Assembly (NCBI GenBank): GCA_017472735.1
Contig: JAFUOD010000002.1
Coordinates: forward strand, 68,226-132,225
Reading direction: 5' to 3'
Origin: Oscillospiraceae bacterium
GTDB lineage: Bacteria > Bacillota > Clostridia > Oscillospirales > Ruminococcaceae
Length of the DNA stretch: 64,000 nucleotides
This document shows, in pieces, positions 7,266 through 50,382 of the stretch. Made by a program: the position numbers and the translations under genes. Each line of letters begins with the position of its first letter. Position 1 is the first letter of the stretch. Under the pieces are notes generated by a model. The model saw only the letters and a program-made list of their open reading frames with translations. It was not told the DNA's origin and did not search any database.

Positions 7266-7838
7266 ATGAAATTTATTGTTGAAACTTCTGCACGTCACGT
7301 GCACGTTAGCGAAGCTGACCTTGAGACTTTGTTCGGCAAGGGCGCTAAGCTTACCCACAAAAAGGATCTCTCTCAGCCCGGCCAGTTTGCCTGCGAAGAA
7401 AGAGTAACCGTTGTTGGCCCCAAGAAGGAGATCGCAGGTGTATCTATCCTTGGTCCTTGCAGAAAGGAAACTCAGGTTGAGCTTTCTGCTACCGATGCTC
7501 GTTCCATTGGCATTACCGCCCCTGTAAGAGAATCCGGCGACCTTGAAGGCTCGGCACCTTGCAAGCTTGTAGGCCCTTGCGGAGAAGTTGAGCTTGAAAA
7601 GGGCGTAATCGTTGCAAAGCGCCATATTCACCTCACCCCCGAAGATGCTGCTGAACTTGGCGTAACAGATAAGGAAGTTGTTTGGGTTAAGCTTGAAACC
7701 GAAGGCAGAAGCGCAGTTTTGGGCGATGTTGTTTGCCGTGTAAGCCCCAGCTATGCAACTGCTATGCATATTGACACCGACGAATCAAACGCTGTCGGCG
7801 CCGGCAGAAACCAGATGGGCGAGATCGTTAAGCTTTAA
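7266..7838 (+). CDS. pduL: Phosphate propanoyl/acetyl-transferase PduL
   Basis: MKFIVETSARHVHVSEADLETLFG, with a second RHIHLTPEDA repeat typical of PduL. GGAGG RBS precedes the ATG at 7266. Confidence 0.85.
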   Translation: MKFIVETSARHVHVSEADLETLFGKGAKLTHKKDLSQPGQFACEERVTVVGPKKEIAGVSILGPCRKETQVELSATDARSIGITAPVRESGDLEGSAPCKLVGPCGEVELEKGVIVAKRHIHLTPEDAAELGVTDKEVVWVKLETEGRSAVLGDVVCRVSPSYATAMHIDTDESNAVGAGRNQMGEIVKL

Positions 7839-7855
7839 TTGAATCTAATAAGAGA

Positions 7856-7886
7856 GCCGTTTCGGATTTTTCGAGGCGGCTTTTTT
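7856..7886 (+). terminator. Rho-independent terminator of pduL
   Basis: 9-bp stem GCCGTTTCG/CGAGGCGGC (two G-U pairs) followed by TTTTTT. Confidence 0.7.
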
Positions 7887-7897
7887 GTTTATTAAAA

Positions 7898-8124
7898 GGT
7901 GCGCTCGCTTCGCTCGCCTAATGCGGCACTCGCCCGGCACCCCCTTTTTTCAAAAGGGGACAGCCGTGCAACGCCGCGCCACCCCACCCCCGCCCCACGC
8001 AAAGCGTGCGGCGCCCCCTCCCCGCGGGGAGGGGGCTGTGCGGCGAAGCCGCGCAGGGGGTGGGGCAAGCGGCGTGGTTGCCCTAAGGCAACAAGTGCCG
8101 CATATGCCGCCGAAGGCGGCAACC
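7898..8124. repeat. GC-rich nested-hairpin intergenic element, copy A (largest)
   Basis: Outer stem 7921-7929/8095-8103. Inner stem 7982-7991/8056-8065 encloses three hairpins, including a perfect 22-nt palindrome at 8014-8035. Further hairpins lie at 7941-7959 and about 8078-8094. Confidence 0.8.
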
Positions 8125-8132
8125 TTTAAGCT

Positions 8133-8169
8133 ACAAAAAGCCGTACCGCTTTAAAAGCAGTACGGCTTT
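8133..8169 (-). terminator. Rho-independent terminator of the feo operon
   Basis: Stem AAGCCGTAC (8138-8146)/GTACGGCTT (8160-8168), with a T-run on the minus strand (complement of CAAAAAG). Confidence 0.7.
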
Positions 8170-8203
8170 AAGTGTCGTATTTTTAAGAAGATAACTATTT
8201 AAA

Positions 8204-8374
8204 TCAATGCCCGTGACAATTGCCACTGTTGGGGCATCCCTTACAGCCGCAGCCGCAAGAAGATTTGCCCTGTTTTTTGTCCTTAACCATTTTAAATATG
8301 ATTGCAAACAGAATTACTGCAACAACCAGCAAAACGATTATCGAAGTGAGATTTTCTGTAATAAAACCCAACAT
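8204..8374 (-). CDS. FeoB-associated Cys-rich small membrane protein (56 aa)
   Basis: Below the ORF-track length cut-off. My translation is MLGFITENLTSIIVLLVVAVILFAIIFKMVKDKKQGKSSCGCGCKGCPNSGNCHGH. It starts 14 nt downstream of the feoB stop. Confidence 0.7.
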   Translation of the reverse strand: MLGFITENLTSIIVLLVVAVILFAIIFKMVKDKKQGKSSCGCGCKGCPNSGNCHGH

Positions 8375-8387
8375 TTTAAACCTCCGT

Positions 8388-10619
8388 TTACTTTGTGCGA
8401 GCTTTGCTTACAAGATGGTTGCTTTCTTTATAAGGGCGAACAAGCAAGTAGATGATTGTTGCCAAAAGCAAAACTGCAACAATAACGCCAAAGATGTTTG
8501 CTGTACCTGTGAAGATAAGTCCCAGCTGATATACAATGAATGAGCAAACATATGCAAAAATTGTCATATAACCAACTGCGAACCAACTCCACTTGGGGTT
8601 GTTCATTTCACGCTTGATAGCACCGATTGCTGCGAAGCAAGGAGCGCACAAGAGGTTGAAGATCATAAAGCTGAAGCCTGCAAGCTTGCTGCCACCGAAT
8701 ATTTCCCGGCCGATAAGTGCAAGCTCGTTGCTGCCTTCTTCAACAAGGGCAAAGGCAAGGTCAGCGTCTGCCATAGAGGAGAGTGAACCGAATACACCAA
8801 CAACTTCTTCCTTAGCAACAAGACCCAAAACGGTGGCAACTGCTGCCTGCCAGTTACCAAAGCCCAAGGGCTTGAATATTACTGCAATTGCAGAGCCGAT
8901 CACGTTAAGAATAGATGCTTCGTCACCTGTGATATAGTGCAAACCGCCCTCAAAGGTGAGGCTGTTGAGAACCCAAATTACAACGCTTGCGGCAACGATA
9001 ACTGTACCTGCACGCTTAATGAAGGACCAACCGCGTTCCCATGTAGAGTGGAAGATGTTTCTTGCAACGGGGAAGTGGTAAGCAGGAAGCTCGATAACAA
9101 ATGGAGCAGGATCGCCTGCAAACTGCTTGGTTTTCTTTAAGATAATGCCCGAAACGATAACTGCGGCAATACCGATGAAGTAAGCGGCAGTTGCGATCCA
9201 AGCGCTGTTGCCAAAGAGGGCTGCAGCGATCAAACCAACTATAGGCATTTTAGCGCCGCAGGGGATAAAGCCGGTGGTGATGATAGTCATTCTTCTGTCA
9301 CGTTCCTGTTCGATCGTACGGGATGCCATGATACCGGGTACGCCGCAACCTGAAGCGATGAGCATGGGAATAAAGGACTTACCGGAAAGACCGAACTTTC
9401 TGAAGATTCTATCCATAATAAAAGCAACACGAGCCATGTAGCCGCAGTCTTCTAAAACAGAGAGAAGCAGGAAGAGGATAAGCATCTGAGGTACGAAGCC
9501 CAAAACAGCACCTACGCCACCAACAATACCGTCCTGAATAAGGGAGTAAAGCCATTCCCAAATAACAGGTGTGCCATCAGCGTTTAAAAGAACCATATCC
9601 AAAAGTTCGGGAATGCTTAACCAGCTTGCCATAAATGTATCGGGGTAGGTTTCTGCGAACGAACCGAACAAGCCGTCGTTCATAAATACAACTGTCCAGT
9701 CACCAATGGTGCCGATGGAAAGAGTATATACAAGCCACATTGCAAGTGCAAAAATGGGAAGTGCCAACCAGCGGTTGGTAACAATTCTGTCGATCTTATC
9801 GGAAACAGAAAGCGCGCCTGCGTTTTTCTTCTTGTAGCAAGCCTTGATAAGCGAGCCTATGTAAATGTAACGCTCGTTGGTGATGATGCTTTCAGAGTCA
9901 TCGTCCATTTCCTTTTCAGCTGCGGCAATGTCTTCCTCAATGTGAGACAAAACTTCAGCGTTAAGGCCTAAATCTGCCAAAACCTTTTCGTCTCGCTCGA
10001 AAATTTTAATAGCATACCAGCGTTGTTGTTCTGCAGGCATATCGTGAACTGCGGCTTCCTCAATGTGAGCCAAAGCGTGTTCAACTGCACCGTTAAAGGT
10101 GTGCATGGGCACAGTCTTGCCGTTCTTTGCAGCTTCGATAGCAGCTTCTGCAGCCTCCATAATACCATCGCCTTTAAGAGCCGAGATCTCAATGATCTTG
10201 CAGCCGAGCTGACGGGAAAGCTCGTCGGTATTTATCTTGTCGCCGTTCTTTCTTACAACGTCCATCATGTTGATAGCGATTACAACGGGAATACCAAGTT
10301 CGGTGAGCTGAGTTGTTAAGTAAAGGTTTCTTTCAAGGTTGGTGCCGTCAATGATGTTCAAAATAGCATCGGGACGTTCGCCAATGAGGTAGTTTCTTGC
10401 AACTACTTCTTCAAGAGTGTAGGGGGAAAGCGAGTAGATACCGGGAAGGTCGGTGATTACAACGCCGTCGTGCTTTTTAAGTTTACCTTCTTTGTATTCA
10501 ACGGTAACGCCGGGCCAGTTGCCAACAAACTGGTTAGAACCGGTGAGAGCGTTGAAAAGTGTTGTTTTGCCGCAGTTGGGGTTACCAGCCAGCGCAATTC
10601 TAATGCCCTTGTTGTCCAT
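8388..10619 (-). CDS. feoB: Ferrous iron transporter FeoB
   Basis: N-terminal G-domain IALAGNPNCGKTTLFNALTG..DLPGIYSL followed by a large polytopic permease; 743 aa. Confidence 0.95.
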   Translation of the reverse strand: MDNKGIRIALAGNPNCGKTTLFNALTGSNQFVGNWPGVTVEYKEGKLKKHDGVVITDLPGIYSLSPYTLEEVVARNYLIGERPDAILNIIDGTNLERNLYLTTQLTELGIPVVIAINMMDVVRKNGDKINTDELSRQLGCKIIEISALKGDGIMEAAEAAIEAAKNGKTVPMHTFNGAVEHALAHIEEAAVHDMPAEQQRWYAIKIFERDEKVLADLGLNAEVLSHIEEDIAAAEKEMDDDSESIITNERYIYIGSLIKACYKKKNAGALSVSDKIDRIVTNRWLALPIFALAMWLVYTLSIGTIGDWTVVFMNDGLFGSFAETYPDTFMASWLSIPELLDMVLLNADGTPVIWEWLYSLIQDGIVGGVGAVLGFVPQMLILFLLLSVLEDCGYMARVAFIMDRIFRKFGLSGKSFIPMLIASGCGVPGIMASRTIEQERDRRMTIITTGFIPCGAKMPIVGLIAAALFGNSAWIATAAYFIGIAAVIVSGIILKKTKQFAGDPAPFVIELPAYHFPVARNIFHSTWERGWSFIKRAGTVIVAASVVIWVLNSLTFEGGLHYITGDEASILNVIGSAIAVIFKPLGFGNWQAAVATVLGLVAKEEVVGVFGSLSSMADADLAFALVEEGSNELALIGREIFGGSKLAGFSFMIFNLLCAPCFAAIGAIKREMNNPKWSWFAVGYMTIFAYVCSFIVYQLGLIFTGTANIFGVIVAVLLLATIIYLLVRPYKESNHLVSKARTK

Positions 10620-11901: not shown

Positions 11902-12253
11902 ATATCAGCAAATATCCAAGTGCTAAAATAAGCTTAATGTCAGCATTGTTTTTGTAAAGAATAAACAGCAGGATAAGAATAAGCAGTTTTTCCGAGTCGA
12001 TGTTTGAACTGCCCGAAAAAAGCGAGCTTATTATATCGTTTTGCTTATGAATGGGCGGTGGGTTGTGATGCTGTTGTTTGTGCTGAGGCTTTGGTGCGGC
12101 GCTCGGCGCCGAGGTCGGGGCAGCGGCTTGGTCAGGCTCGGGCGGCGCATTTTGTTCAAACACAAGGCTTTTCGAGCGCTTTTGCATATCTCTCATGCGC
12201 TCCAAAGCCTCAAGCTGCATACGGCTAAAGCCCTGTTCATCATAATAAGCCAA
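11900..12253 (-). CDS. Hypothetical protein: Pro/Gln-rich middle, hydrophobic C-terminus
   Basis: 117 aa ORF whose start overlaps the end of the upstream ORF by 14 nt. No family recognised. Confidence 0.5.
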   Translation of the reverse strand: MAYYDEQGFSRMQLEALERMRDMQKRSKSLVFEQNAPPEPDQAAAPTSAPSAAPKPQHKQQHHNPPPIHKQNDIISSLFSGSSNIDSEKLLILILLFILYKNNADIKLILALGYLLI

Positions 12254-14267: not shown

Positions 14268-14298
14268 AGCTCTCTCCAATGCAGGAGGGAGCTTTTTT
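14268..14298 (+). terminator. Rho-independent terminator of araD
   Basis: GCTCTCTCC/GGAGGGAGC stem (one mismatch) followed by TTTTTT. Confidence 0.7.
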
Positions 14299-14424
14299 GC
14301 GCGCCGACGTCGCGCGGTGCGCCTAAGCGAAGCGAGGGCTGTACGCGCGGTGGAGGCGCCGCCGGCCGCCGTTCCTCGCCGCTGCGCTTCGCGCAGCGCT
14401 CGGCTTCGCCGTCAGACGGCACCG
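14299..14424. repeat. GC-rich hairpin-mosaic intergenic element, copy B
   Basis: Contains modules CGCCGACGTCG (14302-14312), AGCGAAGCGAG (14326-14336), CGGTGGAGGCGC (14348-14359) and GCCGTC-A-GACGGCAC (14408-14422), plus hairpin CTGCGC-TTC-GCGCAG. Confidence 0.8.
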
Positions 14425-14465
14425 TTCAACGATTGACTTTATATTATCATGTGTTATAATAATTT

Positions 14466-14630
14466 CGTTATTTCAGGGAAACAGGTGAAACTCCTGTACT
14501 GGCACGCAGCCGTGTGGCGCACAAATTTATCCGTCTTACCCGTATCCGCAAAATCGGGGACAAAGCCATTGAGATCATTCTTGAGAAGGCGATGGATAAG
14601 CGCTTAGTCGAAATACCTGGATAGCAATTG
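14466..14630 (+). promoter_or_regulatory. Cobalamin (B12) riboswitch candidate
   Basis: AGGGAAACAGGTGAAACTCCTGTACTGGCACGCAGCCGTG core, with a B12-box-like AGTCGAAATACCTGG near 14607-14621. It lies upstream of a DUF4430 lipoprotein and an ECF S-component gene. Confidence 0.65.
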
Positions 14631-14700
14631 CCTTGTGAATGATCTGCGAGCGCCGGAAAAGCGAGGACAAGCTATATTAAAAAATAAAGGAGAAGCAAAA

Positions 14701-22984: not shown

Positions 22985-23096
22985 GCTGTGGTGCGGGGCA
23001 CCGCCGCCGGCTCCTTCGGAGCCGGCTTTTTGCAAACGCCGCAGACGTTTGCAATCTCCGCCCGCGAAAGCGGGCGGAGTGGGCGGTGCCTGCAGC
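22985..23096. repeat. GC-rich nested-hairpin intergenic element, copy C (closed multi-helix junction)
   Basis: Closing stem GGCACCGCC (22997-23005)/GGCGGTGCC (23082-23090) encloses hairpins 23007-23025 (cUUCGg loop), 23030-23054 (9-bp stem) and 23056-23079 (10-bp stem, GAAA loop). Confidence 0.85.
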
Positions 23097-32016: not shown

Positions 32017-32097
32017 AATATTCCTCCGCAAAAAATTAATTTTACACGTTTTATTATATCACATATTTAAATAAATGAAAGTGGTTTATGAGAAAAT

Positions 32098-32202
32098 CCG
32101 CGCCGACGTCGCGGCGCGCGTTTTCTTTAGAAACTGTGCGCGCGGTGGAGGCGCTCAAGGCGCACACTCCCACGCCGGGCTTCGCACCGCCGCGGGGCGC
32201 GC
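32098..32202. repeat. GC-rich hairpin-mosaic intergenic element, copy E
   Basis: Modules CGCCGACGTCG (32101-32111) and CGGTGGAGGCGC (32143-32154). Stem TGTGCGC/GCGCACA. It abuts the TraX stop codon (32203-32205). Confidence 0.8.
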
Positions 32203-32961
32203 TTATCTAAAAACTGCTATTAAATACAGCACCAGCATGTGCAAGGGGTAAAACACATAGCAAATGTATTTAAATGCCACGCTTGAATGACCTTTTCTTC
32301 CGTTGTAAAGCCATATCGGCAAAAGTGCAAGAAGGGCAAGCGCCTGCATATGTATAAAGAGATCAAGCCCAAAGAAGTTAAGCTCATATCCGTATCCGCC
32401 CAAGATTTCGGTGTTTATGTATAACAGAGCTGCAACTTGTCCCAAAAGGTTATACCATTTCTTTTCACGGAAGAAATAGAATACCAACACCGTCAGCACA
32501 CCGCCGCCGTAATAATCTGCCATAGTAATTATGCCTGCAATATACGACAGAAGCATAACGCACACGGTAGCAAGTGCATACACCCATTTTTGTTCTGCCT
32601 GCTTTGCACGTTCGAGCACCCACATTGCGCCAAGAGCCATTAAAAATGTCCACAAAACGTTTTGGTGCAGGGGATAAAACAACCCTCCGCCTGCCATAAG
32701 GTTAAACGGAATCTCGGAAATAACGGCAAACACCAAAAGCCTTACGGCATATTTTTTGAGGTTTTTGGTGCGATAGAACCCTTCAACCGTCATAAACGCA
32801 AAAATGGGAAAAGCTATTCGCCCAACACACCTTATCCAATCGTTATAAACAAGCCCGACAGCACCTATATGGTCTAAAAGCATACACACCATTGCAATAA
32901 TGTGCAGTCCTGCCGAGGATATATCAAAGTGCAGTTTTTTAGTTTCCATTACATTCTCCAA
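32203..32961 (-). CDS. TraX-family membrane protein
   Basis: LHIIAMVCMLLDHIG N-terminal motif; polytopic, 252 aa. Confidence 0.7.
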   Translation of the reverse strand: MENVMETKKLHFDISSAGLHIIAMVCMLLDHIGAVGLVYNDWIRCVGRIAFPIFAFMTVEGFYRTKNLKKYAVRLLVFAVISEIPFNLMAGGGLFYPLHQNVLWTFLMALGAMWVLERAKQAEQKWVYALATVCVMLLSYIAGIITMADYYGGGVLTVLVFYFFREKKWYNLLGQVAALLYINTEILGGYGYELNFFGLDLFIHMQALALLALLPIWLYNGRKGHSSVAFKYICYVFYPLHMLVLYLIAVFR

Positions 32962-44010: not shown

Positions 44011-44150
44011 TTTATCAACTCCTTCAGTGTGATGTGAACTGTTCACTGCTGATATTGTAACACCTCGTATAGCAAAAAGCTATGACGAGGTGGTTTCATT
44101 TTTTGTCGATTAATTAAACTGCGATATTAAAAAACGCGTGAGAGTGAAAA

Positions 44151-44238
44151 CGGAAGGCGAGTGCCGAGCTGTGCCGCCGCGCCTCCACCGCCGGCACTGT
44201 TCGCCCCTTCGGGGCAAACGCGCCCGCCGACGTCGGCG
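44151..44238. repeat. GC-rich hairpin-mosaic intergenic element, copy F (inverted relative to B and E)
   Basis: GCGCCTCCACCG (44179-44190) is the reverse complement of the B/E module. CGCCGACGTCG lies at 44225-44235 inside a 14-nt palindrome. GCCCC-TTC-GGGGC hairpin. The element abuts the YitT stop codon. Confidence 0.8.
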
Positions 44239-45108
44239 CTAAATCTGCTGTTCGCCGTGAATCTTGTAACCTTCACCGAAAACCTCATTAGCGGTGGTTA
44301 CAATAGCAAACGATGCCTCGTCCTCACTTTTTATAATTTTAAGCGCTTTTGCTGCCAAACGCTTTTTAATAACGCACAAAACGACCTTTTTTTCTGCGCC
44401 CGAGTATGCACCCACGCCCTCCAAGAAAGTGGCACCTGCGTCAAGCTCGTTCAAAAGGCGGTCGGTAATCGCTTCATATTTATCCGAGATGATATAAATA
44501 ATCTTCGCTTCATCGCGGTTATAAAGAATCATATCAATAACGGTCGAATAAACAATAATGCAAATAACAGCATAAAGTGCAATCTCAATATCTTTGAAAA
44601 CAAGTGCAGACAAAGCAACAATAATGCCGTCGGTTATAACAAAAAGCTTGCCTGCGGAAAGATGCTTGAACTTTCTTCTTAAGAGCTTAACAATAACATC
44701 TGTGCCGCCTGTTGTAGCTCCCTCTCGAAGAATGATCTCAAGGCTTACCGCCATTGTAAAGCCGCCTGCAAGCGCTGCAAGCATAAGGTTTTCGGTAATA
44801 GGGTCAAACTGTGCAAAAATATCTATAAGCACTGAGGACAAAGCAACAGCGTAGATCGTTGGTGCCAAAAACCTAAACCCGAAAACAAAAATAGCCGCAA
44901 TAATTAAAGGAATGTTAAGGATAAGAATGATCGTGCCTGTTCCAAGCGAGGGGATAAAGTGGCTTATGATCATTGCAACACCTGTGAAACCGCCGGGCAC
45001 AATTCCGTTAGGTTCAATAAACAAGCTTACACCAATGGCATAAATCACCGTTGCAACGGTTATCATAAAATATTTTCTTAAAATGTTGCTAATCTTTGGG
45101 ATCTTCAT
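44239..45108 (-). CDS. YitT-family membrane protein (DUF2179 C-terminal domain)
   Basis: Polytopic N-terminus with repeated GG(F/T)TG motifs and a C-terminal soluble domain; 289 aa. Confidence 0.8.
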   Translation of the reverse strand: MKIPKISNILRKYFMITVATVIYAIGVSLFIEPNGIVPGGFTGVAMIISHFIPSLGTGTIILILNIPLIIAAIFVFGFRFLAPTIYAVALSSVLIDIFAQFDPITENLMLAALAGGFTMAVSLEIILREGATTGGTDVIVKLLRRKFKHLSAGKLFVITDGIIVALSALVFKDIEIALYAVICIIVYSTVIDMILYNRDEAKIIYIISDKYEAITDRLLNELDAGATFLEGVGAYSGAEKKVVLCVIKKRLAAKALKIIKSEDEASFAIVTTANEVFGEGYKIHGEQQI

Positions 45109-45258: not shown

Positions 45259-48000
45259 ATGATAAAAAGAGTGTTATCATTAATTTTAGCAGTTGTAATC
45301 GGTTTGTCAACCCTTTGTGCCTGCGCCCGGCACGAGGATGTCAAGAAGGACGATGTTCCTTCGGTAACATCTTCACCCGAACAAACCGAGGGCGAGGTTA
45401 CTTCGACTACTCAGGCGACTGCGACCGAAGAAACTACGACCGAAGCGACAACTACGCCCGAGGTTACAACGACCGAAGAAACCACAACAGCTGCAACCAC
45501 TACGACCGAGGCGGCTACTACCGAAGCTACGACTACGACAGTTACAACAACGACCGAGGCAACCACAACAACTGTCACCACCACTACTGAAGCCACAACG
45601 ACCACAGCCGCACCCAAGCCTGTTGAGCTTGGCGTTTTGGGCTATGATTTAAGCGAAAAGGTCTCGACCGATAAATCTCTTGCTAAGGGTAAGGTAACAA
45701 GCCTTGTTATTAACGAGGTCTGCCCGTCGAACAAAAACACTCTTGACGATAAAGACGGCGAATCAAAGGATTGGATCGAAATCTATAATCCTACCGACAG
45801 CGTTATCAATCTTGAGGGCGTTGGACTTTCGGATGATAAAAACGACCCGTTCAAGTGGACTTTCCCGAGCGTAAACATTCAAGCAAAGGGCTATATTATT
45901 GTATTCGCTTCCGATAAAGATATTAAGACCCCCGAGCTTCACACAAATTATAAGATTTCGGGTGGAAACGAAGAAATCGTTCTTACCTCATCCGACGGTA
46001 AGACCATCGATTCATTCATCATTTCTGCTACTGAAGAAGACCAGACCTATGGCAGATATCCCGATGGAAGCGATGGGTTGAGACTTCTCAGCGCAACTCC
46101 GGGCAAGTCGAATGACAAAGCCAAGGAGGTTGTCGAAGCAGGAACTCTTAAACCTCTGTTTTCTAACGAAAGCGGATTCTACAGCCAGCAGTTCAGCTTA
46201 AAAATCACCGCCGAACCGGGCTGCACAATTTATTACACCACGGATGGAAGCGTTCCCACGACAAAATCCAATAAATACACCCAGTCTATAACGATCAAGG
46301 ACCGTTCGAGCGACAAGGCGATTTTAACCTATAAACGTGATCTTACGGTTGCTGACGATTCGTTCTATCCTAACAAGGAATTTGAAAAGGCAACGATCAT
46401 TCGTGCAATTGCCGTTGATAAAAACGGTGTTGTCAGCGATGTTACTACTGCTACATATTTCGTAAGCTCGAGCATTGCAAATAAATATAAAGATGTTGAC
46501 CTTATCTCGGTAGTTATTGACCCCGATGACCTTTATGACCACGAAACAGGCATTTATGTTGCAGGTAAGGTGTTTGAGGATTGGCGTGCAGAGCACCCCA
46601 ACGATCCGCTTGACGGCAACTCTCAGGCAAACTTTAACCAGCGAGGAAGAGAATGGGAGCGTGACGCTCACATTGATTACTTCAGCTCAGCAAATCTCGA
46701 GTTCAGCTCTGATGTCGGCGTGAGAATTCACGGCGGCTGGTCGCGTAACAGCGCACAAAAGAGCCTTAGGTTCTACTTCCGCGACGAATATGGCGAAAGC
46801 AAGCTTGATTACGAGCTGTTTGAAGGCAATTATTCTGAAGATACAAACAAGAAAATTACTTCATATAAGCGTTTCCTTATCCGAAACGGCGGCAACGACT
46901 CGTATATTATGACCTTTAAAGACCCGTGGACACAGTCGCTGTTTAGCGAGTTCAATTTCGGCACACAGGCAACCAACCTTGTAATCTGCTTCCTCGACGG
47001 CGAATATTGGGGAGTCTATACGGCATGTGAATCACTTGACAAGCATTATGTCGAAGAAAAATACGGTGTGCCCGACGAAGACGTTGTTGTAATGAAGAAC
47101 AATTCTCTTGAAGACGGTGACGAACCCGGTGACGAAGAACTTTGGAATATAACCAGACGCTATATCCGTGACCACGACATGTCGAACCCCGACAATTACG
47201 CAAAGGCATGCGAAATGATGGATATGGATTCGTTTGCACAGTATATCGCTGCTGAAATTTATATCGGCAACGAGGACTGGATTTGGAACAATGCCGCATG
47301 GTGGCGTTCACGCTCGACCGATAAAGCAGACAGCCCTTATCAGGACGGTAAGTGGAGATTCTTGATGTTCGACGTTGAGTTTTCTATGAACCTTTACGGC
47401 AACGGCAAAGACGTTCAGTATGACATTTTAGATGATCTTCTTAGAAAAGATGGTTATTTCGGCCCCATTCTTTCTTCCCTCTTAAAGAACGATACATTCA
47501 AGCACAAGTTCGTTGTTGCATGTGAAGATGTTATGAACATCGCCTTCAACAAGAACTATGCCTCCAACAAGCTTAACTCTTACTTGCAGGAGTATTCGCC
47601 TTATCTTGAACAGCATTTTGACAGATATGTCGGCTGGCAATCGCTTAACGGCGTAAGAAATAATGTTGAGGACTGGAAGAAATGGGTTGCCAACAGGCAG
47701 AGCGCGTTCTTATCCATTCTTAAACAGGACCTTGGCATTGACGGTACAAACAACAAGGTCACTGTTGAATTAAGCGATACATCCGGAGGAATTGTCAGGG
47801 TGAACGGACACAAAGTACCCACAAGCGGCGGTTCGTGGAGCGGAACATATATGTCGGGATATAAAATCGTTATCGAGGCTGTTCCTGCAAAGGGCTATGA
47901 ATTCGTCGGCTGGTCGGGAAGCTATGACGGCGATGCAGCATCAATTACGGTTAATCCAGCAAAGGCATTGACCCTGAAAGCAAACTTTAAAAAGAAGTAG
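45259..48000 (+). CDS. CotH kinase-family surface lipoprotein with a Thr-rich stalk, lamin-tail (LTD) domain and C-terminal Listeria-Bacteroides-type repeat
   Basis: Lipobox LSTLCAC. LTD motif VINEVCPSN..DWIEIYNP. CotH core RIHGGWSR..LRNGGND. C-terminal GYEFVGWSGSY. Confidence 0.8.
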   Translation: MIKRVLSLILAVVIGLSTLCACARHEDVKKDDVPSVTSSPEQTEGEVTSTTQATATEETTTEATTTPEVTTTEETTTAATTTTEAATTEATTTTVTTTTEATTTTVTTTTEATTTTAAPKPVELGVLGYDLSEKVSTDKSLAKGKVTSLVINEVCPSNKNTLDDKDGESKDWIEIYNPTDSVINLEGVGLSDDKNDPFKWTFPSVNIQAKGYIIVFASDKDIKTPELHTNYKISGGNEEIVLTSSDGKTIDSFIISATEEDQTYGRYPDGSDGLRLLSATPGKSNDKAKEVVEAGTLKPLFSNESGFYSQQFSLKITAEPGCTIYYTTDGSVPTTKSNKYTQSITIKDRSSDKAILTYKRDLTVADDSFYPNKEFEKATIIRAIAVDKNGVVSDVTTATYFVSSSIANKYKDVDLISVVIDPDDLYDHETGIYVAGKVFEDWRAEHPNDPLDGNSQANFNQRGREWERDAHIDYFSSANLEFSSDVGVRIHGGWSRNSAQKSLRFYFRDEYGESKLDYELFEGNYSEDTNKKITSYKRFLIRNGGNDSYIMTFKDPWTQSLFSEFNFGTQATNLVICFLDGEYWGVYTACESLDKHYVEEKYGVPDEDVVVMKNNSLEDGDEPGDEELWNITRRYIRDHDMSNPDNYAKACEMMDMDSFAQYIAAEIYIGNEDWIWNNAAWWRSRSTDKADSPYQDGKWRFLMFDVEFSMNLYGNGKDVQYDILDDLLRKDGYFGPILSSLLKNDTFKHKFVVACEDVMNIAFNKNYASNKLNSYLQEYSPYLEQHFDRYVGWQSLNGVRNNVEDWKKWVANRQSAFLSILKQDLGIDGTNNKVTVELSDTSGGIVRVNGHKVPTSGGSWSGTYMSGYKIVIEAVPAKGYEFVGWSGSYDGDAASITVNPAKALTLKANFKKK
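45400..45609 (+). repeat. Low-complexity Thr/Glu/Ala-rich coding repeats inside the CotH-family gene
   Basis: Translated TTTEATTT(P/T)(E/V)VTTTE-type units repeated about 8 times. The nucleotide units are imperfect. Confidence 0.8.
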
Positions 48001-50118: not shown

Positions 50119-50128
50119 GTGTGTTTTT

Positions 50129-50268
50129 GCCGCACTGCCTGCCAAGCGCCCCCGCACCGCCGCTTTCAGCGGCGGCTTTCTTCGCCGTTTAGGCGAAGCC
50201 CCCGCTTGCAGCCCCAAGGGGATGCAAGCGGGCAGGGGGCGCCGGCACTCGCACTTGCCCTGCACCGA
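50129..50268. repeat. GC-rich nested-hairpin intergenic element, copy G
   Basis: Closing stem GCGCCCCC (50146-50153)/GGGGGCGC (50235-50242) encloses three hairpins: CCGCCGCT-TTC-AGCGGCGG, CTTCGCC-GTTTA-GGCGAAG, and a 10-bp stem CCCGCTTGCA/TGCAAGCGGG with an inner CCCC-AA-GGGG. Confidence 0.85.
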
Positions 50269-50382
50269 CATTAAAATGACGCATTTTTTATGCTATCTTG
50301 CAAAAAACGCACGCTCAAACCGATAAAATGCGTTAAAATGCGACAAAAAATGAATTTTTCGCCTTTAAGCTATGCAAAATGA

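What the first reader, a model, noticed from the sequence alone, without database searches (positions are those of the whole stretch)
7898..8124. Copy A: about 230 nt, doubly nested architecture containing a perfect 22-nt palindrome
ATGCGGCAC (7921-7929) pairs with GTGCCGCAT (8095-8103). Inside that, CCCCACCCCC (7982-7991) pairs with GGGGGTGGGG (8056-8065), and ACGCC/GGCGT extends the helix.

That inner helix encloses three hairpins:
- CACGC-AAA-GCGTG
- the perfect palindrome CCCCCTCCCCGCGGGGAGGGGG (8014-8035)
- CTGTGCGGC-GAA-GCCGCGCAG

Additional hairpins also lie within or beside the outer helix: CCCCTTTT-TTC-AAAAGGGG (7941-7959), GTTGCC-CTAA-GGCAAC, and GCCGCC-GAA-GGCGGC.

The layout of an outer helix plus three internal hairpins is the same as in copies C and G, although the primary sequences differ. 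That points to a conserved architecture rather than a conserved sequence.

Copy A lies in the convergent gap between the pduL and feo-operon terminators.
Basis: seen in the sequence. Interest (0 to 1): 0.65.

Follow-up and report, generated by a model that had tools for sequence, protein, structure and literature searches.

The report
GC-rich nested-palindrome repeat between two terminators
Copy A is a real, extremely hairpin-rich 234-base non-coding block that belongs to a family of GC-rich palindromic repeats scattered behind gene ends in one group of uncultured gut Clostridia; it resembles the REP/BIME repeats of proteobacteria, is inherited vertically rather than freshly inserted, and is moderately interesting rather than revolutionary.

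Summary
The block (7894-8127, 70-84% GC in a 44% GC window) folds far better than shuffles on both strands (z about -9.5 as RNA or DNA). It sits exactly between the pduL and feo terminators.

- It matches no Rfam family and no tRNA, and no promoter was found.
- It is one of six non-coding GC islands in the 64 kb window, which fall into at least two sequence families.
- Orthologous copies exist in species with 92% and 86% FeoB identity. They diverge gradually (67-73% identity, similar to the flanks).
- Stems stay perfect through compensatory changes, and some hairpins are replaced outright.
- One relative keeps only the right 60 nt, and more distant relatives have nothing.
- A full-length paralogue lies at another convergent gap in a sister genome.
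- Terminal loops are mostly GAA or TTC triloops, in equal numbers on both strands.
- The DNA mini-hairpin GCGAAGC is enriched about 11-fold.

Best reading: a REP/BIME-like palindromic DNA repeat, maintained at the DNA level and tolerated in transcriptionally dead space.

Not testable here: transcription, genome-wide copy number, and the mobilising enzyme.

The parts
7853..7886 (+). Intrinsic terminator of pduL: GC stem followed by TTTTTT. It forms the left border of the gap.
   Evidence: Read directly in the sequence and folded. PduL was identified by Pfam PF06130.
7894..8127 (.). Copy A: a type I GC-rich nested-palindrome element of 234 nt.
   Evidence: Folds (z about -9.5 on both strands). 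Orthologues and a paralogue. Boundaries computed.
7894..7904 (.). Left end, AAAAGGTGCGC. It is inverted relative to the right end GGCAACCTTT (8118-8127). It can be read as a terminal inverted repeat or as an A-tract plus closing helix.
   Evidence: Conserved as AAAAGGTGG / AAAAGGTTGCC in L001, L188 and the L001 paralogue. The closing helix is predicted.
7921..7930 (.). 5' arm of the outer helix (ATGCGGCACT). It contains the shared motif CGGCACTCG (7924-7932).
   Evidence: The helix is shifted but kept perfect in L001 (CGGCACTTGC/GCAAGTGCCG) and in L188.
7941..7959 (.). Hairpin CCCCTTTT-TTC-AAAAGGGG.
   Evidence: L001 has CCGC-TTAC-GCGG in its place, and L188 has no hairpin there.
7971..7991 (.). 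5' arms of the inner helices: ACGCCGC (7971-7977) and CCCCACCCCC (7982-7991).
7996..8008 (.). Hairpin 1: CACGC-AAA-GCGTG.
   Evidence: Homologous hairpins are GCCGCAC-TTC-GTGCGGC (L188) and GCCGCCC-TTC-GGGCGGC (L001), with an A-T to C-G compensatory change.
8014..8035 (.). Perfect 22-nt palindrome CCCCCTCCCCGCGGGGAGGGGG.
   Evidence: It is 92% identical in all three orthologues and differs only in the loop: GC, GAG or GAC.
8036..8056 (.). Hairpin 2: CTGTGCGGC-GAA-GCCGCGCAG. It contains the mini-hairpin GCGAAGC.
   Evidence: L188 has a longer version, and L001 has a different T-rich hairpin in its place.
8056..8075 (.). 3' arms of the inner helices: GGGGGTGGGG (8056-8065) and GCGGCGT (8069-8075).
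8077..8092 (.). Hairpin GTTGCC-CTAA-GGCAAC.
   Evidence: Kept in L188 (loop GTCA) and L002 (loop GCA). Replaced by GCGC-GAA-GCGC in L001.
8094..8103 (.). 3' arm of the outer helix (AGTGCCGCAT).
8105..8121 (.). Terminal hairpin TGCCGCC-GAA-GGCGGCA, followed by ACCTTT.
   Evidence: L188 has ATCCGCC-GCA-GGCGGAT, which carries two compensatory pairs. Part of the right-hand segment 8087-8127, which overlaps this hairpin, is also found in another contig of the same metagenomes.
8133..8169 (-). Intrinsic terminator of the feoAAB / FeoB-associated operon. It forms the right border of the gap.
14298..14425 (+). Island C: a type II element (core 14300-14361) plus extra GC-rich modules. It lies directly after the aldolase terminator and before the promoter of the cobalamin riboswitch.
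22992..23094 (.). Island D: an outer helix enclosing three perfect hairpins, located after the terminator of a small ferredoxin gene.
32097..32212 (+). Island E: a type II element (core 32099-32156) plus a second hairpin. It is antisense to both neighbouring genes.
44130..44240 (-). Island F: a type II element (core 44177-44240) that starts at the TAG stop codon of the YitT-family gene.
50128..50272 (.). Island G: an outer helix (GCGCCCCC/GGGGGCGC plus the CGGCACTCG motif) enclosing three hairpins, located after the sulfatase/LTA-synthase terminator.

Best explanation
Copy A is a member of a lineage-restricted family of GC-rich, nested-palindrome, non-coding DNA repeats. It works like the REP/BIME and MITE-type repeats of other bacteria.

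Shown:
- It occupies the only 'free' DNA between two convergent terminators.
- It has been inherited vertically since before the split of species whose FeoB proteins are 86% identical.
- Its sequence drifts at about the rate of the flanks, while its stems stay perfectly paired.
- A full-length paralogue sits in another convergent gap of a sister genome, and related islands sit behind other terminators.

Inferred:
- The unit acts as DNA, not as a dedicated RNA. When a strand is single (lagging-strand template, cruciform, repair intermediate), it snaps into a multi-branched fold nucleated by d(C-GAA-G)/GCGAAGC mini-hairpins.
- Hairpin-templated repair (template switching, or quasi-palindrome correction) keeps the arms identical and occasionally writes a new palindrome at a tip.
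- Copies spread rarely to new sites, by an enzyme not seen here or by recombination.
- Copies persist only where they do no harm, just beyond terminators.
- Any benefit is secondary, for example a bidirectional back-up barrier to read-through (A-tract, closing helix, T-tract) or protection of 3' ends where a copy lies inside a 3'UTR.
For: - Structure far beyond chance, and equal on both strands, as RNA and as DNA. In 13 elements G-U pairs are rare and show no strand bias.
- No Rfam family, no tRNA or tmRNA, and no promoter-like site. The block is enclosed by terminators pointing at it.
- Six non-coding GC islands in 64 kb, all within about 25 nt of a terminator T-run or at a stop codon, in both orientations relative to neighbouring genes.
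- Shared modules between loci. A paralogue with the same module order lies at a different locus in L001. There are three type II paralogues in the window.
- Orthologues in L001 and L188 are 67% and 73% identical overall, against 55-72% for the flanks. The central palindrome is 92% identical. Several hairpins are replaced, yet every stem is perfect. Compensatory pairs are seen.
- L002 keeps only the right 60 nt plus an inverted scrap. L003, L187, L004 and about 350 kb of other Oscillospiraceae loci have no such islands.
- Of 48 terminal loops, 18 are GAA or TTC (10 and 8), and triloops dominate. GCGAAGC/GCTTCGC occurs 14 times against 1.3 +/- 1.1 in shuffles, with 0 of 1000 shuffles reaching 14.
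- The DNA form of this mini-hairpin is much more stable than the RNA form (PMC13037366).
- The placement between convergent and co-directional genes, close to 3' ends and sometimes supplying the stop codon, matches what is described for REPs (PMC3733652).
Against: - No transposase, no target-site duplication and no empty-site allele were found, so mobility is inferred from a single paralogue and from family structure only.
- The copy number of type I is known for only about 130 kb of the lineage's DNA.
- Compensatory changes and conservation above flank level (A versus L188) are also what a functional RNA would show.
- The type II relatives have two invariant G-U pairs and a tandem G-A at their base. 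At the F locus they lie inside a 3'UTR, which favours one strand.
- Transcription could not be tested, because no RNA run holds this species.
- The template-switch maintenance step is inference, not observation.
Confidence: 0.55

Rival explanations
1. It is a structured RNA element. It would be either a stand-alone non-coding RNA or, more plausibly, an RNA made by read-through that acts as a very strong bidirectional terminator/insulator or as a 3'-end protector, as REP RNAs do in E. coli.
For: - Very stable fold.
- Stems kept by compensatory changes.
- A and L188 are more alike than their flanks.
- The element begins with an A-tract and ends with CCTTT(T) on both strands, like a bidirectional terminator.
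- Type II relatives carry invariant G-U pairs and sit in the YitT 3'UTR upstream of the real terminator in L185 and L186.
- A 96-nt contig of a 'transcriptomic' faecal run covers the right-hand module of a relative.
Against: - No promoter-like site was found, and canonical terminators shield the block from both sides.
- No Rfam match.
- Both strands fold equally and G-U pairs are rare.
- Loops are GAA/TTC triloops in equal numbers on both strands, rather than the GNRA/UNCG tetraloops typical of RNA.
- Family members lie in either orientation relative to transcription, and E is antisense.
- The T-tracts are only 3-4 long.
- The transcriptomic contig is at depth 2.7 and could be DNA carry-over.
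Confidence: 0.2
2. It is not a dispersed element at all but an overgrown bidirectional terminator. A GC-rich terminator hairpin in the convergent gap would have been enlarged in place by repeated fold-back or template-switch replication errors. Similar islands would then arise independently behind other terminators.
For: - There is a graded series at this locus. L003 has a 40-nt nested terminator hairpin, GGGCGCC-GAGT-GCCGCC-GAAA-GGCGGC-GTG-GGCGCCC-T6. L002 has a 60-nt module. The window, L001 and L188 have 224-240 nt.
- The ends look like A-tract / stem / T-tract.
- Hairpin tips change by insertion of short palindromes, for example CAC-TTC-GTG becoming CAC-GC-AAA-GC-GTG.
- Every island abuts a terminator.
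Against: - A full-length paralogue with the same order of about ten modules at an unrelated locus in L001 cannot arise independently.
- Three type II copies share invariant 12-nt ends.
- Islands are absent from about 350 kb of related genomes that have ordinary terminators.
Confidence: 0.15
3. It is an assembly artefact, such as a chimeric or palindromic mis-join in a metagenome assembly.
For: - Five independent assemblies break inside the block, between 7877 and 8067.
- The stretch 7995-8007 is covered by no Logan contig of X1-X3.
Against: - Both halves are reproduced base for base in three metagenomes and two other assemblies.
- Three other species carry uninterrupted homologous blocks at the same locus.
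- Breaks are the expected behaviour of short-read assemblers in GC-rich hairpins.
Confidence: 0.03

Closest known systems
REP sequences and their clusters (BIMEs, REPINs) of Proteobacteria and other phyla, i.e. the GTAG- and CGTC-tagged families (PMC3733652)
   Same: - Short GC-rich palindromic units, dispersed in many copies.
- Located between convergent or co-directional genes, close to 3' ends, sometimes providing the stop codon.
- Units combine into larger foldable clusters and inverted dimers.
- Several families coexist in one genome.
- Abundance varies between related species.
   Different: - No GTAG or CGTC unpaired tag on type I.
- The unit is a 224-240 nt multi-branched block, not a 20-40 bp hairpin or a simple dimer.
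- Stems are perfect, and loops are mostly 3 nt (GAA/TTC) rather than 4-5 nt.
- There is a 30-40 point GC excess over the host genome.
- The host is a member of Oscillospiraceae (Bacillota), a phylum not among those listed in that survey.
- No RAYT gene was seen, although whole genomes were not available.
MITEs with terminal inverted repeats, such as Correia/NEMIS, RUP and ERIC (own knowledge)
   Same: - Non-coding, 100-300 nt, intergenic.
- Inverted ends (AAAAGGTTGCC ... GGCAACCTTTT).
- Able to fold as one large structure.
- Often co-transcribed with neighbouring genes.
   Different: - No target-site duplication and no parent insertion sequence were found.
- The interior is a nest of unrelated perfect hairpins rather than a decayed transposase gene remnant.
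- Copies are orthologously conserved rather than polymorphic.
GC clusters of yeast mitochondrial DNA (own knowledge)
   Same: Short GC-rich palindromic elements scattered in an AT-richer genome. They fold as hairpins, sit in intergenic DNA, can lie nested or adjacent, and are thought to be mobile or to promote recombination.
   Different: A different domain of life with no sequence relation. Yeast clusters are 30-60 bp with defined classes and target sites. This is an analogy only.
Extraordinarily stable DNA mini-hairpins d(GCGAAGC)/d(GCGAAAGC) and the single-strand initiation or hairpin-promoter sites that contain them (PMC13037366)
   Same: The elements are strongly enriched in GCGAAGC and in C-GAA-G triloops. 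These are the motifs that make unusually stable, SSB-resistant hairpins in single-stranded DNA.
   Different: Those sites are single functional hairpins at phage or plasmid origins and N4 promoters. Here the motif is a building block of large chromosomal palindrome clusters, with no link to replication genes.
Clusters of hairpins proposed to cause intrinsic termination (PMC8355165, abstract only)
   Same: Several adjacent stable hairpins in inter-operon regions downstream of stop codons.
   Different: Copy A lies beyond two canonical terminators. It is far more GC-rich and more nested, and it belongs to a sequence family.

Membership tests
REP / BIME (GTAG or CGTC superfamilies) | The unit is a 20-40 bp imperfect palindrome. 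| tested here: inconclusive
   Copy A is 234 nt and multi-branched. It is, however, composed of 13-29 nt palindromic units.
REP / BIME (GTAG or CGTC superfamilies) | A conserved unpaired GTAG or CGTC tetranucleotide at one end of each unit. | tested here: not met
   There is no GTAG or CTAC inside copy A. Type II relatives contain CGTC only inside the paired, palindromic GACGTC, and their stems lack the A-T first pairs described for CGTC families.
REP / BIME (GTAG or CGTC superfamilies) | Many dispersed copies, lying between convergent or co-directional genes near 3' ends. | tested here: met
   There are six non-coding islands in 64 kb, all at terminators or stop codons. Type I has a paralogue in L001 and type II has three copies in the window. 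Genome-wide numbers are unknown.
REP / BIME (GTAG or CGTC superfamilies) | Association with a RAYT (IS200/IS605-type Y1 transposase) gene. | not testable with these tools
   Only about 130 kb of the lineage's DNA could be fetched. No transposase was seen in the annotated parts.
MITE | Terminal inverted repeats. | tested here: inconclusive
   AAAAGGTG(C/G)G on the left and GGCAACCTTT(T) on the right are present in the window, L001 and L188. The left end is also present in the L001 paralogue, and L002 keeps the right end. The inverted match is only 6-10 nt and doubles as an A-tract/T-tract.
MITE | Target-site duplication and empty sites in relatives. | tested here: not met
   There is no direct repeat at the borders. 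The only relative lacking most of the block (L002) shows a replacement or rearrangement, not a clean empty site.
Curated RNA families (Rfam 15), tRNA and tmRNA | A covariance-model match at or near the gathering score, or an ARAGORN call. | tested here: not met
   Only the cobalamin riboswitch passes the threshold in the window. The best hit in 7700-8300 scores 23 bits against a 40-bit threshold for a 34-nt plant-virus hairpin. ARAGORN calls no gene.
Intrinsic (bidirectional) terminator | A GC-rich stem immediately followed by a U-tract of at least 5, with an A-tract upstream for the opposite direction. | tested here: not met
   The terminator scan reports nothing in 7700-8450. It also misses the two flanking terminators, whose stems carry interruptions or loops larger than it allows. 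The T-tracts at the element's ends are 3-4 long, and function was not tested.
Protein-coding gene | An open frame conserved in relatives. | tested here: not met
   ORFs of 76-89 codons overlap the block on both strands. However, orthologues differ by indels that are not multiples of three in almost every module.

The most novel reading that the evidence does not exclude
The islands may be the visible product of a hairpin-directed DNA process specific to this lineage. One form would be a new single-strand-DNA transposition system, a REP-like superfamily in Bacillota whose unit is a cloverleaf-like four-way fold. Another would be a self-reinforcing 'palindrome nursery', in which GCGAAGC mini-hairpins prime fold-back synthesis and template-switch repair, so that palindromes are written, perfected and made GC-richer in place. 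That process might be permitted by loss or change of a hairpin nuclease such as SbcCD. The same C4AC5 / C5TC4 module grammar in high-GC soil metagenome contigs would then mark a widespread, undescribed class.
Probability: 0.2. Interest if true: 0.65.

Novelty: new variant of a known kind. Interest (0 to 1): 0.45.

Why it matters
- **Reach of this repeat class.** REP-type repeats would then extend to uncultured gut Oscillospiraceae, in an unusually elaborate form. That form is about 230 nt, multi-branched, 30-40 GC points above the genome, and occurs roughly once per 10 kb.
- **Palindrome evolution.** The orthologous series offers a natural experiment. It runs from a 40-nt hairpin, through a 60-nt module, to blocks of 224-240 nt. 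Perfect stems, compensatory changes and wholesale hairpin replacement are all visible in it.
- **DNA versus RNA selection.** The strong excess of the d(GCGAAGC) mini-hairpin points to selection or mutation acting on single-stranded DNA rather than RNA. That is testable.
- **Practical consequences.** These blocks systematically break short-read metagenome assemblies, which affects the contiguity of MAGs from this lineage. They also generate spurious ORFs.

Tried and rejected
- **Rfam.** Searched at gathering and at permissive thresholds; only noise.
- **ARAGORN.** No tRNA-like gene despite the cloverleaf-like core.
- **Promoter and terminator scan.** Nothing reported.
- **Protein-coding reading.** Rejected. 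ORFs exist only because GC-rich DNA lacks stop codons, and the indels are not in frame.
- **Island B (12065-12162).** Rejected as a family member. It encodes a Pro/Ala-rich linker of a conserved 117-aa protein.
- **RNA evidence.** No RNA run holds the species. Two 'transcriptomic' runs held only fragments from relatives.
- **Exact-protein look-ups.** Those with the ORF-derived PduL and with the last gene of the window failed, probably because the start codons were wrong.
- **GTDB-representative scan with PduL.** It gave only relatives of 83% identity or less, which lack the block.
- **Viral scan for CCCCCTCCCC..GGGGAGGGGG.** This is a generic strong hairpin of high-GC phage contigs and is not specific.
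- **Viral scan for the type II ends.** It returned 20 hits, none with the hairpin features; they appear to be chance matches inside high-GC phage sequence.
- **Plasmid BLAST.** No match.
- **Covariance model of type II.** It found no further copies in 222 kb of lineage DNA.
- **Strand-bias test (G-U versus A-C).** No strand preference for type I.
- **'Tips evolve faster than neutral'.** This idea had to be softened. A and L188 share most hairpins, and only L001 replaced several.
Full report
**1. Observation**

- The outer helix is ATGCGGCAC(T)/(A)GTGCCGCAT.
- The inner helices are ACGCCGC/GCGGCGT and CCCCACCCCC/GGGGGTGGGG.
- The enclosed hairpins are CACGC-AAA-GCGTG, the perfect 22-nt palindrome at 8014-8035, and CTGTGCGGC-GAA-GCCGCGCAG.
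- The flanking hairpins are CCCCTTTT-TTC-AAAAGGGG, GTTGCC-CTAA-GGCAAC and GCCGCC-GAA-GGCGGC.

The minimum-free-energy fold is exactly this nest.
- As RNA it scores -156 kcal/mol, against -110.6 +/- 4.8 for shuffles (z = -9.5). The reverse strand gives z = -8.6.
- With DNA parameters the two strands give -93 and -96 kcal/mol, z = -9.7 and -9.3. A further AAAGGT/ACCTTT helix closes the whole block at 7894-8127.
- Local GC reaches 0.84 in a window of 0.444.

**2. Context**

- Upstream on the + strand lie a YfhO-family gene and pduL (PF06130).
- Downstream on the - strand lie feoA, feoA, feoB and the FeoB-associated Cys-rich small gene.
- pduL ends with a canonical terminator (7853-7886), and the feo operon ends with another (about 8133-8169, - strand).
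- The block fills the space between them.
- The organism is an uncultured gut member of Oscillospiraceae. Its best named relatives are Candidatus Faeciplasma species, at 81-83% PduL identity.

**3. What it is not**

- Rfam finds only a cobalamin riboswitch elsewhere in the window. A permissive scan of 7700-8300 gives only noise.
- ARAGORN finds no tRNA or tmRNA.
- No promoter-like site is reported.
- The overlapping ORFs are not conserved, because orthologues differ by out-of-frame indels in nearly every module.
- No plasmid record resembles it.

**4. It is one of a set**

The window holds seven GC islands. One of them, B, is a Pro/Ala-rich coding linker and is set aside. The other six are non-coding and hairpin-dense. 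All lie within about 25 nt of a terminator T-run or at a stop codon.
- **Type II (C, E and F reversed).** This is a sequence family: a long hairpin with invariant ends GCGCC-GA-CGTCG ... CGGTG-GA-GGCGC. Those ends pair with each other through a tandem G-A and two G-U pairs, and 9 of 22 pairs show compensatory change. A covariance model finds just these copies and their orthologues.
- **A, D and G.** These share the plan 'outer helix enclosing three hairpins'. A, G and F also share the motif CGGCACTCG.

**5. Orthologues of copy A**

FeoB homologues led to the same locus in relatives.
- **L001 (FeoB 92% identical).** It has a 240-nt block with the same scaffold, but several different hairpins.
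- **L188 and L189 (86%).** They have a 224-nt block that shares most hairpins with A.
- **L002 (86%, and 85% to L188).** It keeps only the right 60 nt (GGCGGCGTG-GTTGCC-GCA-GGCAAC-GAGTGCCGCAT-ATGCCGCC-GAA-GGCGG-TAACCTTTT). An inverted scrap, GGGCGAGTG, sits in otherwise AT-rich DNA.
- **L003 (84%).** It has a different neighbour and only a 40-nt nested terminator hairpin containing GAGTGCCGCC-GAAA-GGCGGC.
- **L187 (82%), L004 and more distant genomes.** They have ordinary terminators.

| Comparison | Whole block | Flanking intergenic DNA |
|---|---|---|
| A versus L001 | 67% | 70-72% |
| A versus L188 | 73% | 55-65% |

The central palindrome is 92% identical throughout.

So the block is old and vertically inherited. 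It diverges gradually and is not an all-or-none recent insertion. Yet each version has perfect stems. Examples of compensation:
- GCCGCAC/GTGCGGC versus GCCGCCC/GGGCGGC in hairpin 1.
- TGCCGCC/GGCGGCA versus ATCCGCC/GGCGGAT in the terminal hairpin.
- The outer helix slid from ATGCGGCACT/AGTGCCGCAT to CGGCACTTGC/GCAAGTGCCG.

**6. Dispersal**

- L001 carries a second, full-length type I copy at an unrelated locus, the convergent gap between the aldolase and DUF1846 terminators.
- Its module order is the same: AAAAGGTTGCC, CGGCACTCG, a hairpin, CCACGCCTCGC, C5AC5GCC, hairpin 1, GGCGC5TC5-GA-G5AG5GC, hairpin 2 with GGCGAAGCC, G5TG5, and so on.
- In the window that same position holds the type II island C, and L002 has a short type II copy there.
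- In the palindrome loop and the bases that follow it, the two L001 copies resemble each other (GAG...GGGGGCTT) more than either resembles the orthologous copy A.
- This points to duplication, transposition or gene conversion within a genome.

**7. Other loci behave alike**

Homologues of the sulfatase/LTA-synthase gene gave the F and G loci in L185 (87%) and L186 (82%).
- **At G.** The outer helix (CACTGCCTGC..GCGCCCCC / GGGGGCGC(C)GGCACT) is conserved. Of the three inner hairpins, hp2 and hp3 are replaced by other perfect hairpins, and hp1 stays similar (GCCGCC...GGCGGC).
- **At F.** The type II core is conserved in three species. Only the hairpin tip varies (CCCC-GAA-GGGG, CC-GCGG-GG, TGAAA).
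  - The element begins at the TAG stop of the YitT-family gene.
  - In L185 and L186 it lies upstream of the true terminator, that is, inside a 3'UTR.
- **E** is antisense to both neighbours.

Islands of this strength are absent from about 350 kb of other Oscillospiraceae loci, so the phenomenon is restricted to this lineage.

**8. DNA or RNA?**

- Across 13 elements the two strands fold equally well. G-U pairs are few (0-7 per strand and element, about 5% of all pairs) and show no strand bias.
- Of 48 terminal loops, 10 are GAA and 8 are TTC, and triloops dominate.
- GCGAAGC or its complement occurs 14 times in 1.9 kb, against 1.3 +/- 1.1 in dinucleotide shuffles (0 of 1000). C-GAA-G and its complement occur 23 times against 6.1 +/- 2.4.
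- d(GCGAAGC) and d(GCGAAAGC) are the 'extraordinarily stable' DNA mini-hairpins. The RNA versions are much weaker, and the motif is known from single-strand DNA priming sites and N4 hairpin promoters (PMC13037366).
- Equal use of both orientations, 3-nt loops, and perfect Watson-Crick stems on both strands fit a DNA palindrome better than a strand-specific RNA.
- The type II base helix, with invariant G-U, U-G and tandem G-A, is the one strand-asymmetric feature. It keeps an RNA or single-strand reading open for that family.
- Transcription could not be tested, because no RNA run holds the species.

**9. Interpretation**

Shown:
- A real block, structured well beyond chance, sits in a convergent gap.
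- It has family relatives in the same genome and a paralogue in a sister genome.
- It is vertically inherited with gradual divergence, and its stems are kept perfect.
- It is enriched in the DNA mini-hairpin.

Inferred:
- It is a REP/BIME- or MITE-like palindromic DNA repeat.
- It is tolerated in transcriptionally dead space.
- Its pairing is maintained by hairpin-templated repair and/or by selection.
- Dispersal is rare and uses an unidentified mechanism.
- The ends (A-tract, closing helix, T-tract) suggest either descent from a bidirectional terminator or a secondary role as a back-up barrier.
- REPs show the same placement rules (PMC3733652), but the defining GTAG or CGTC tag is absent. The element therefore works like a REP cluster without being a member of those families.

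**10. Outside the lineage**

- A metagenome scan for CCCCACCCCCGCC-N6-30-GGCGCCCCCTCCCC returned eight contigs of 63-71% GC.
- At least seven of them carry palindromic elements built from the same C4AC5 and C5TC4 modules. One (L174) shows no palindromic structure.
- Some are inverted pairs, and one has a GCGAAGC hairpin as spacer. Several carry TCGCTCCGCTC, which also occurs in the left arm of L188.
- Whether this reflects common descent or convergence of strong C-run/G-run hairpins is open.
- The viral scans were either non-specific or false positives.

**11. Technical note**

- Five independent short-read assemblies end inside copy A, between 7877 and 8067. Others end inside island G. One such contig (L186) terminates in Illumina adapter sequence.
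- The two halves of A are reproduced exactly. The 13 nt at 7995-8007 rest on the window's own assembly, supported by analogy with the orthologues.

**12. Verdict**

The element is a new variant of a known kind, the small palindromic intergenic repeats. It has unusual features: its size, its branching, its GC contrast, its GAA mini-hairpins and its host phylum. Interest is moderate.

Noticed in passing
window 14439-14638 (+): A cobalamin riboswitch (Rfam RF00174, 43.7 bits) lies upstream of a DUF4430 gene. Its promoter-like TTGACT-17-TATAAT follows directly after GC island C.
   Followed up: partly
window 14300-14361 (+), 32099-32156 (+), 44177-44240 (-); L002 536-605, L185 6113-6181, L186 6104-6169: A type II element family. 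It is a hairpin of about 60 nt with invariant ends GCGCC-GA-CGTCG / CGGTG-GA-GGCGC. Those ends include a tandem G-A and two invariant G-U pairs. The tip is variable. At the F locus it overlaps the TAG stop of the YitT-family gene and lies in the 3'UTR.
   Followed up: yes
window 12065-12162 (-): GC island B is not an element. It encodes a Pro/Ala-rich, poorly conserved linker in a small (117 aa) conserved membrane-anchored protein next to the DtxR-like iron repressor.
   Followed up: yes
window 7877-8067; 50190-50270; loci L084, L183, L186, L190: Short-read metagenome assemblies repeatedly end inside the GC islands. The L186 contig ends in Illumina adapter sequence (AGATCGGAAGAGC...). Positions 7995-8007 are covered by no Logan contig of runs X1-X3.
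   Followed up: partly
L190 20560-20880; L191 20560-21100; L192 12690-13220 (about 6.5 kb beyond the right end of the window): A unit of about 228 bp next to a phage-type integrase gene is present in different copy numbers in three assemblies of the same species. It begins with TGGCGGAGAAAGAGGGAATTGAA, which looks like the reverse complement of a tRNA or tmRNA 3' end, although ARAGORN and Rfam call nothing. It contains GCGAAGC-type mini-hairpins (GTTGC-TTC-GCAAC, GTGC-TTC-GCAC) and GC-rich hairpins.
   Followed up: partly
L173-L180 (JGI metagenome contigs, 63-71% GC): At least seven of these eight contigs carry palindromic elements with the same C4AC5GCC ... GGCGC5TC4-loop-G4AG4 ... G5TG4 module grammar as copy A; L174 shows no palindromic structure. 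Some are inverted pairs (L180). Several carry TCGCTCCGCTC, which is also found in the L188 copy.
   Followed up: partly
L085-L172 (IMG/VR contigs): In high-GC phage contigs the hairpin CCCCCTCCCC-loop-GGGGAGGGGG is common after gene ends. It is often followed directly by GGGGGTGGGG, or preceded by CCCCACCCCC.
   Followed up: no
window 8026-8065 (+) and 7982-8023 (+): There are four G-runs (G4 A G5 ... G5 T G4) and, just upstream, five C-runs on the same strand. If the hairpins were melted, the sequence could in principle form a G-quadruplex or an i-motif.
   Followed up: no
window 45370-45612 (+): Imperfect 15/18-nt tandem repeats encode a Thr/Glu/Ala-rich linker inside the 913-aa LTD/CotH-domain protein. 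The gene is split into two ORFs in relative L185.
   Followed up: no
window 8087-8127; a contig of about 2.8 kb in runs X1 and X2 (1,036 nt in X3): A second contig in the same three metagenomes carries an 85% identical copy of part of the right end of copy A. Its flanks differ (…GGTGGGGTGAGGTGGCGTGGTTGACCCATG / TAACAAATTATTTTGCAAAACGCCC…). It is unresolved whether this is a paralogue or the orthologue of a co-occurring relative.
   Followed up: partly
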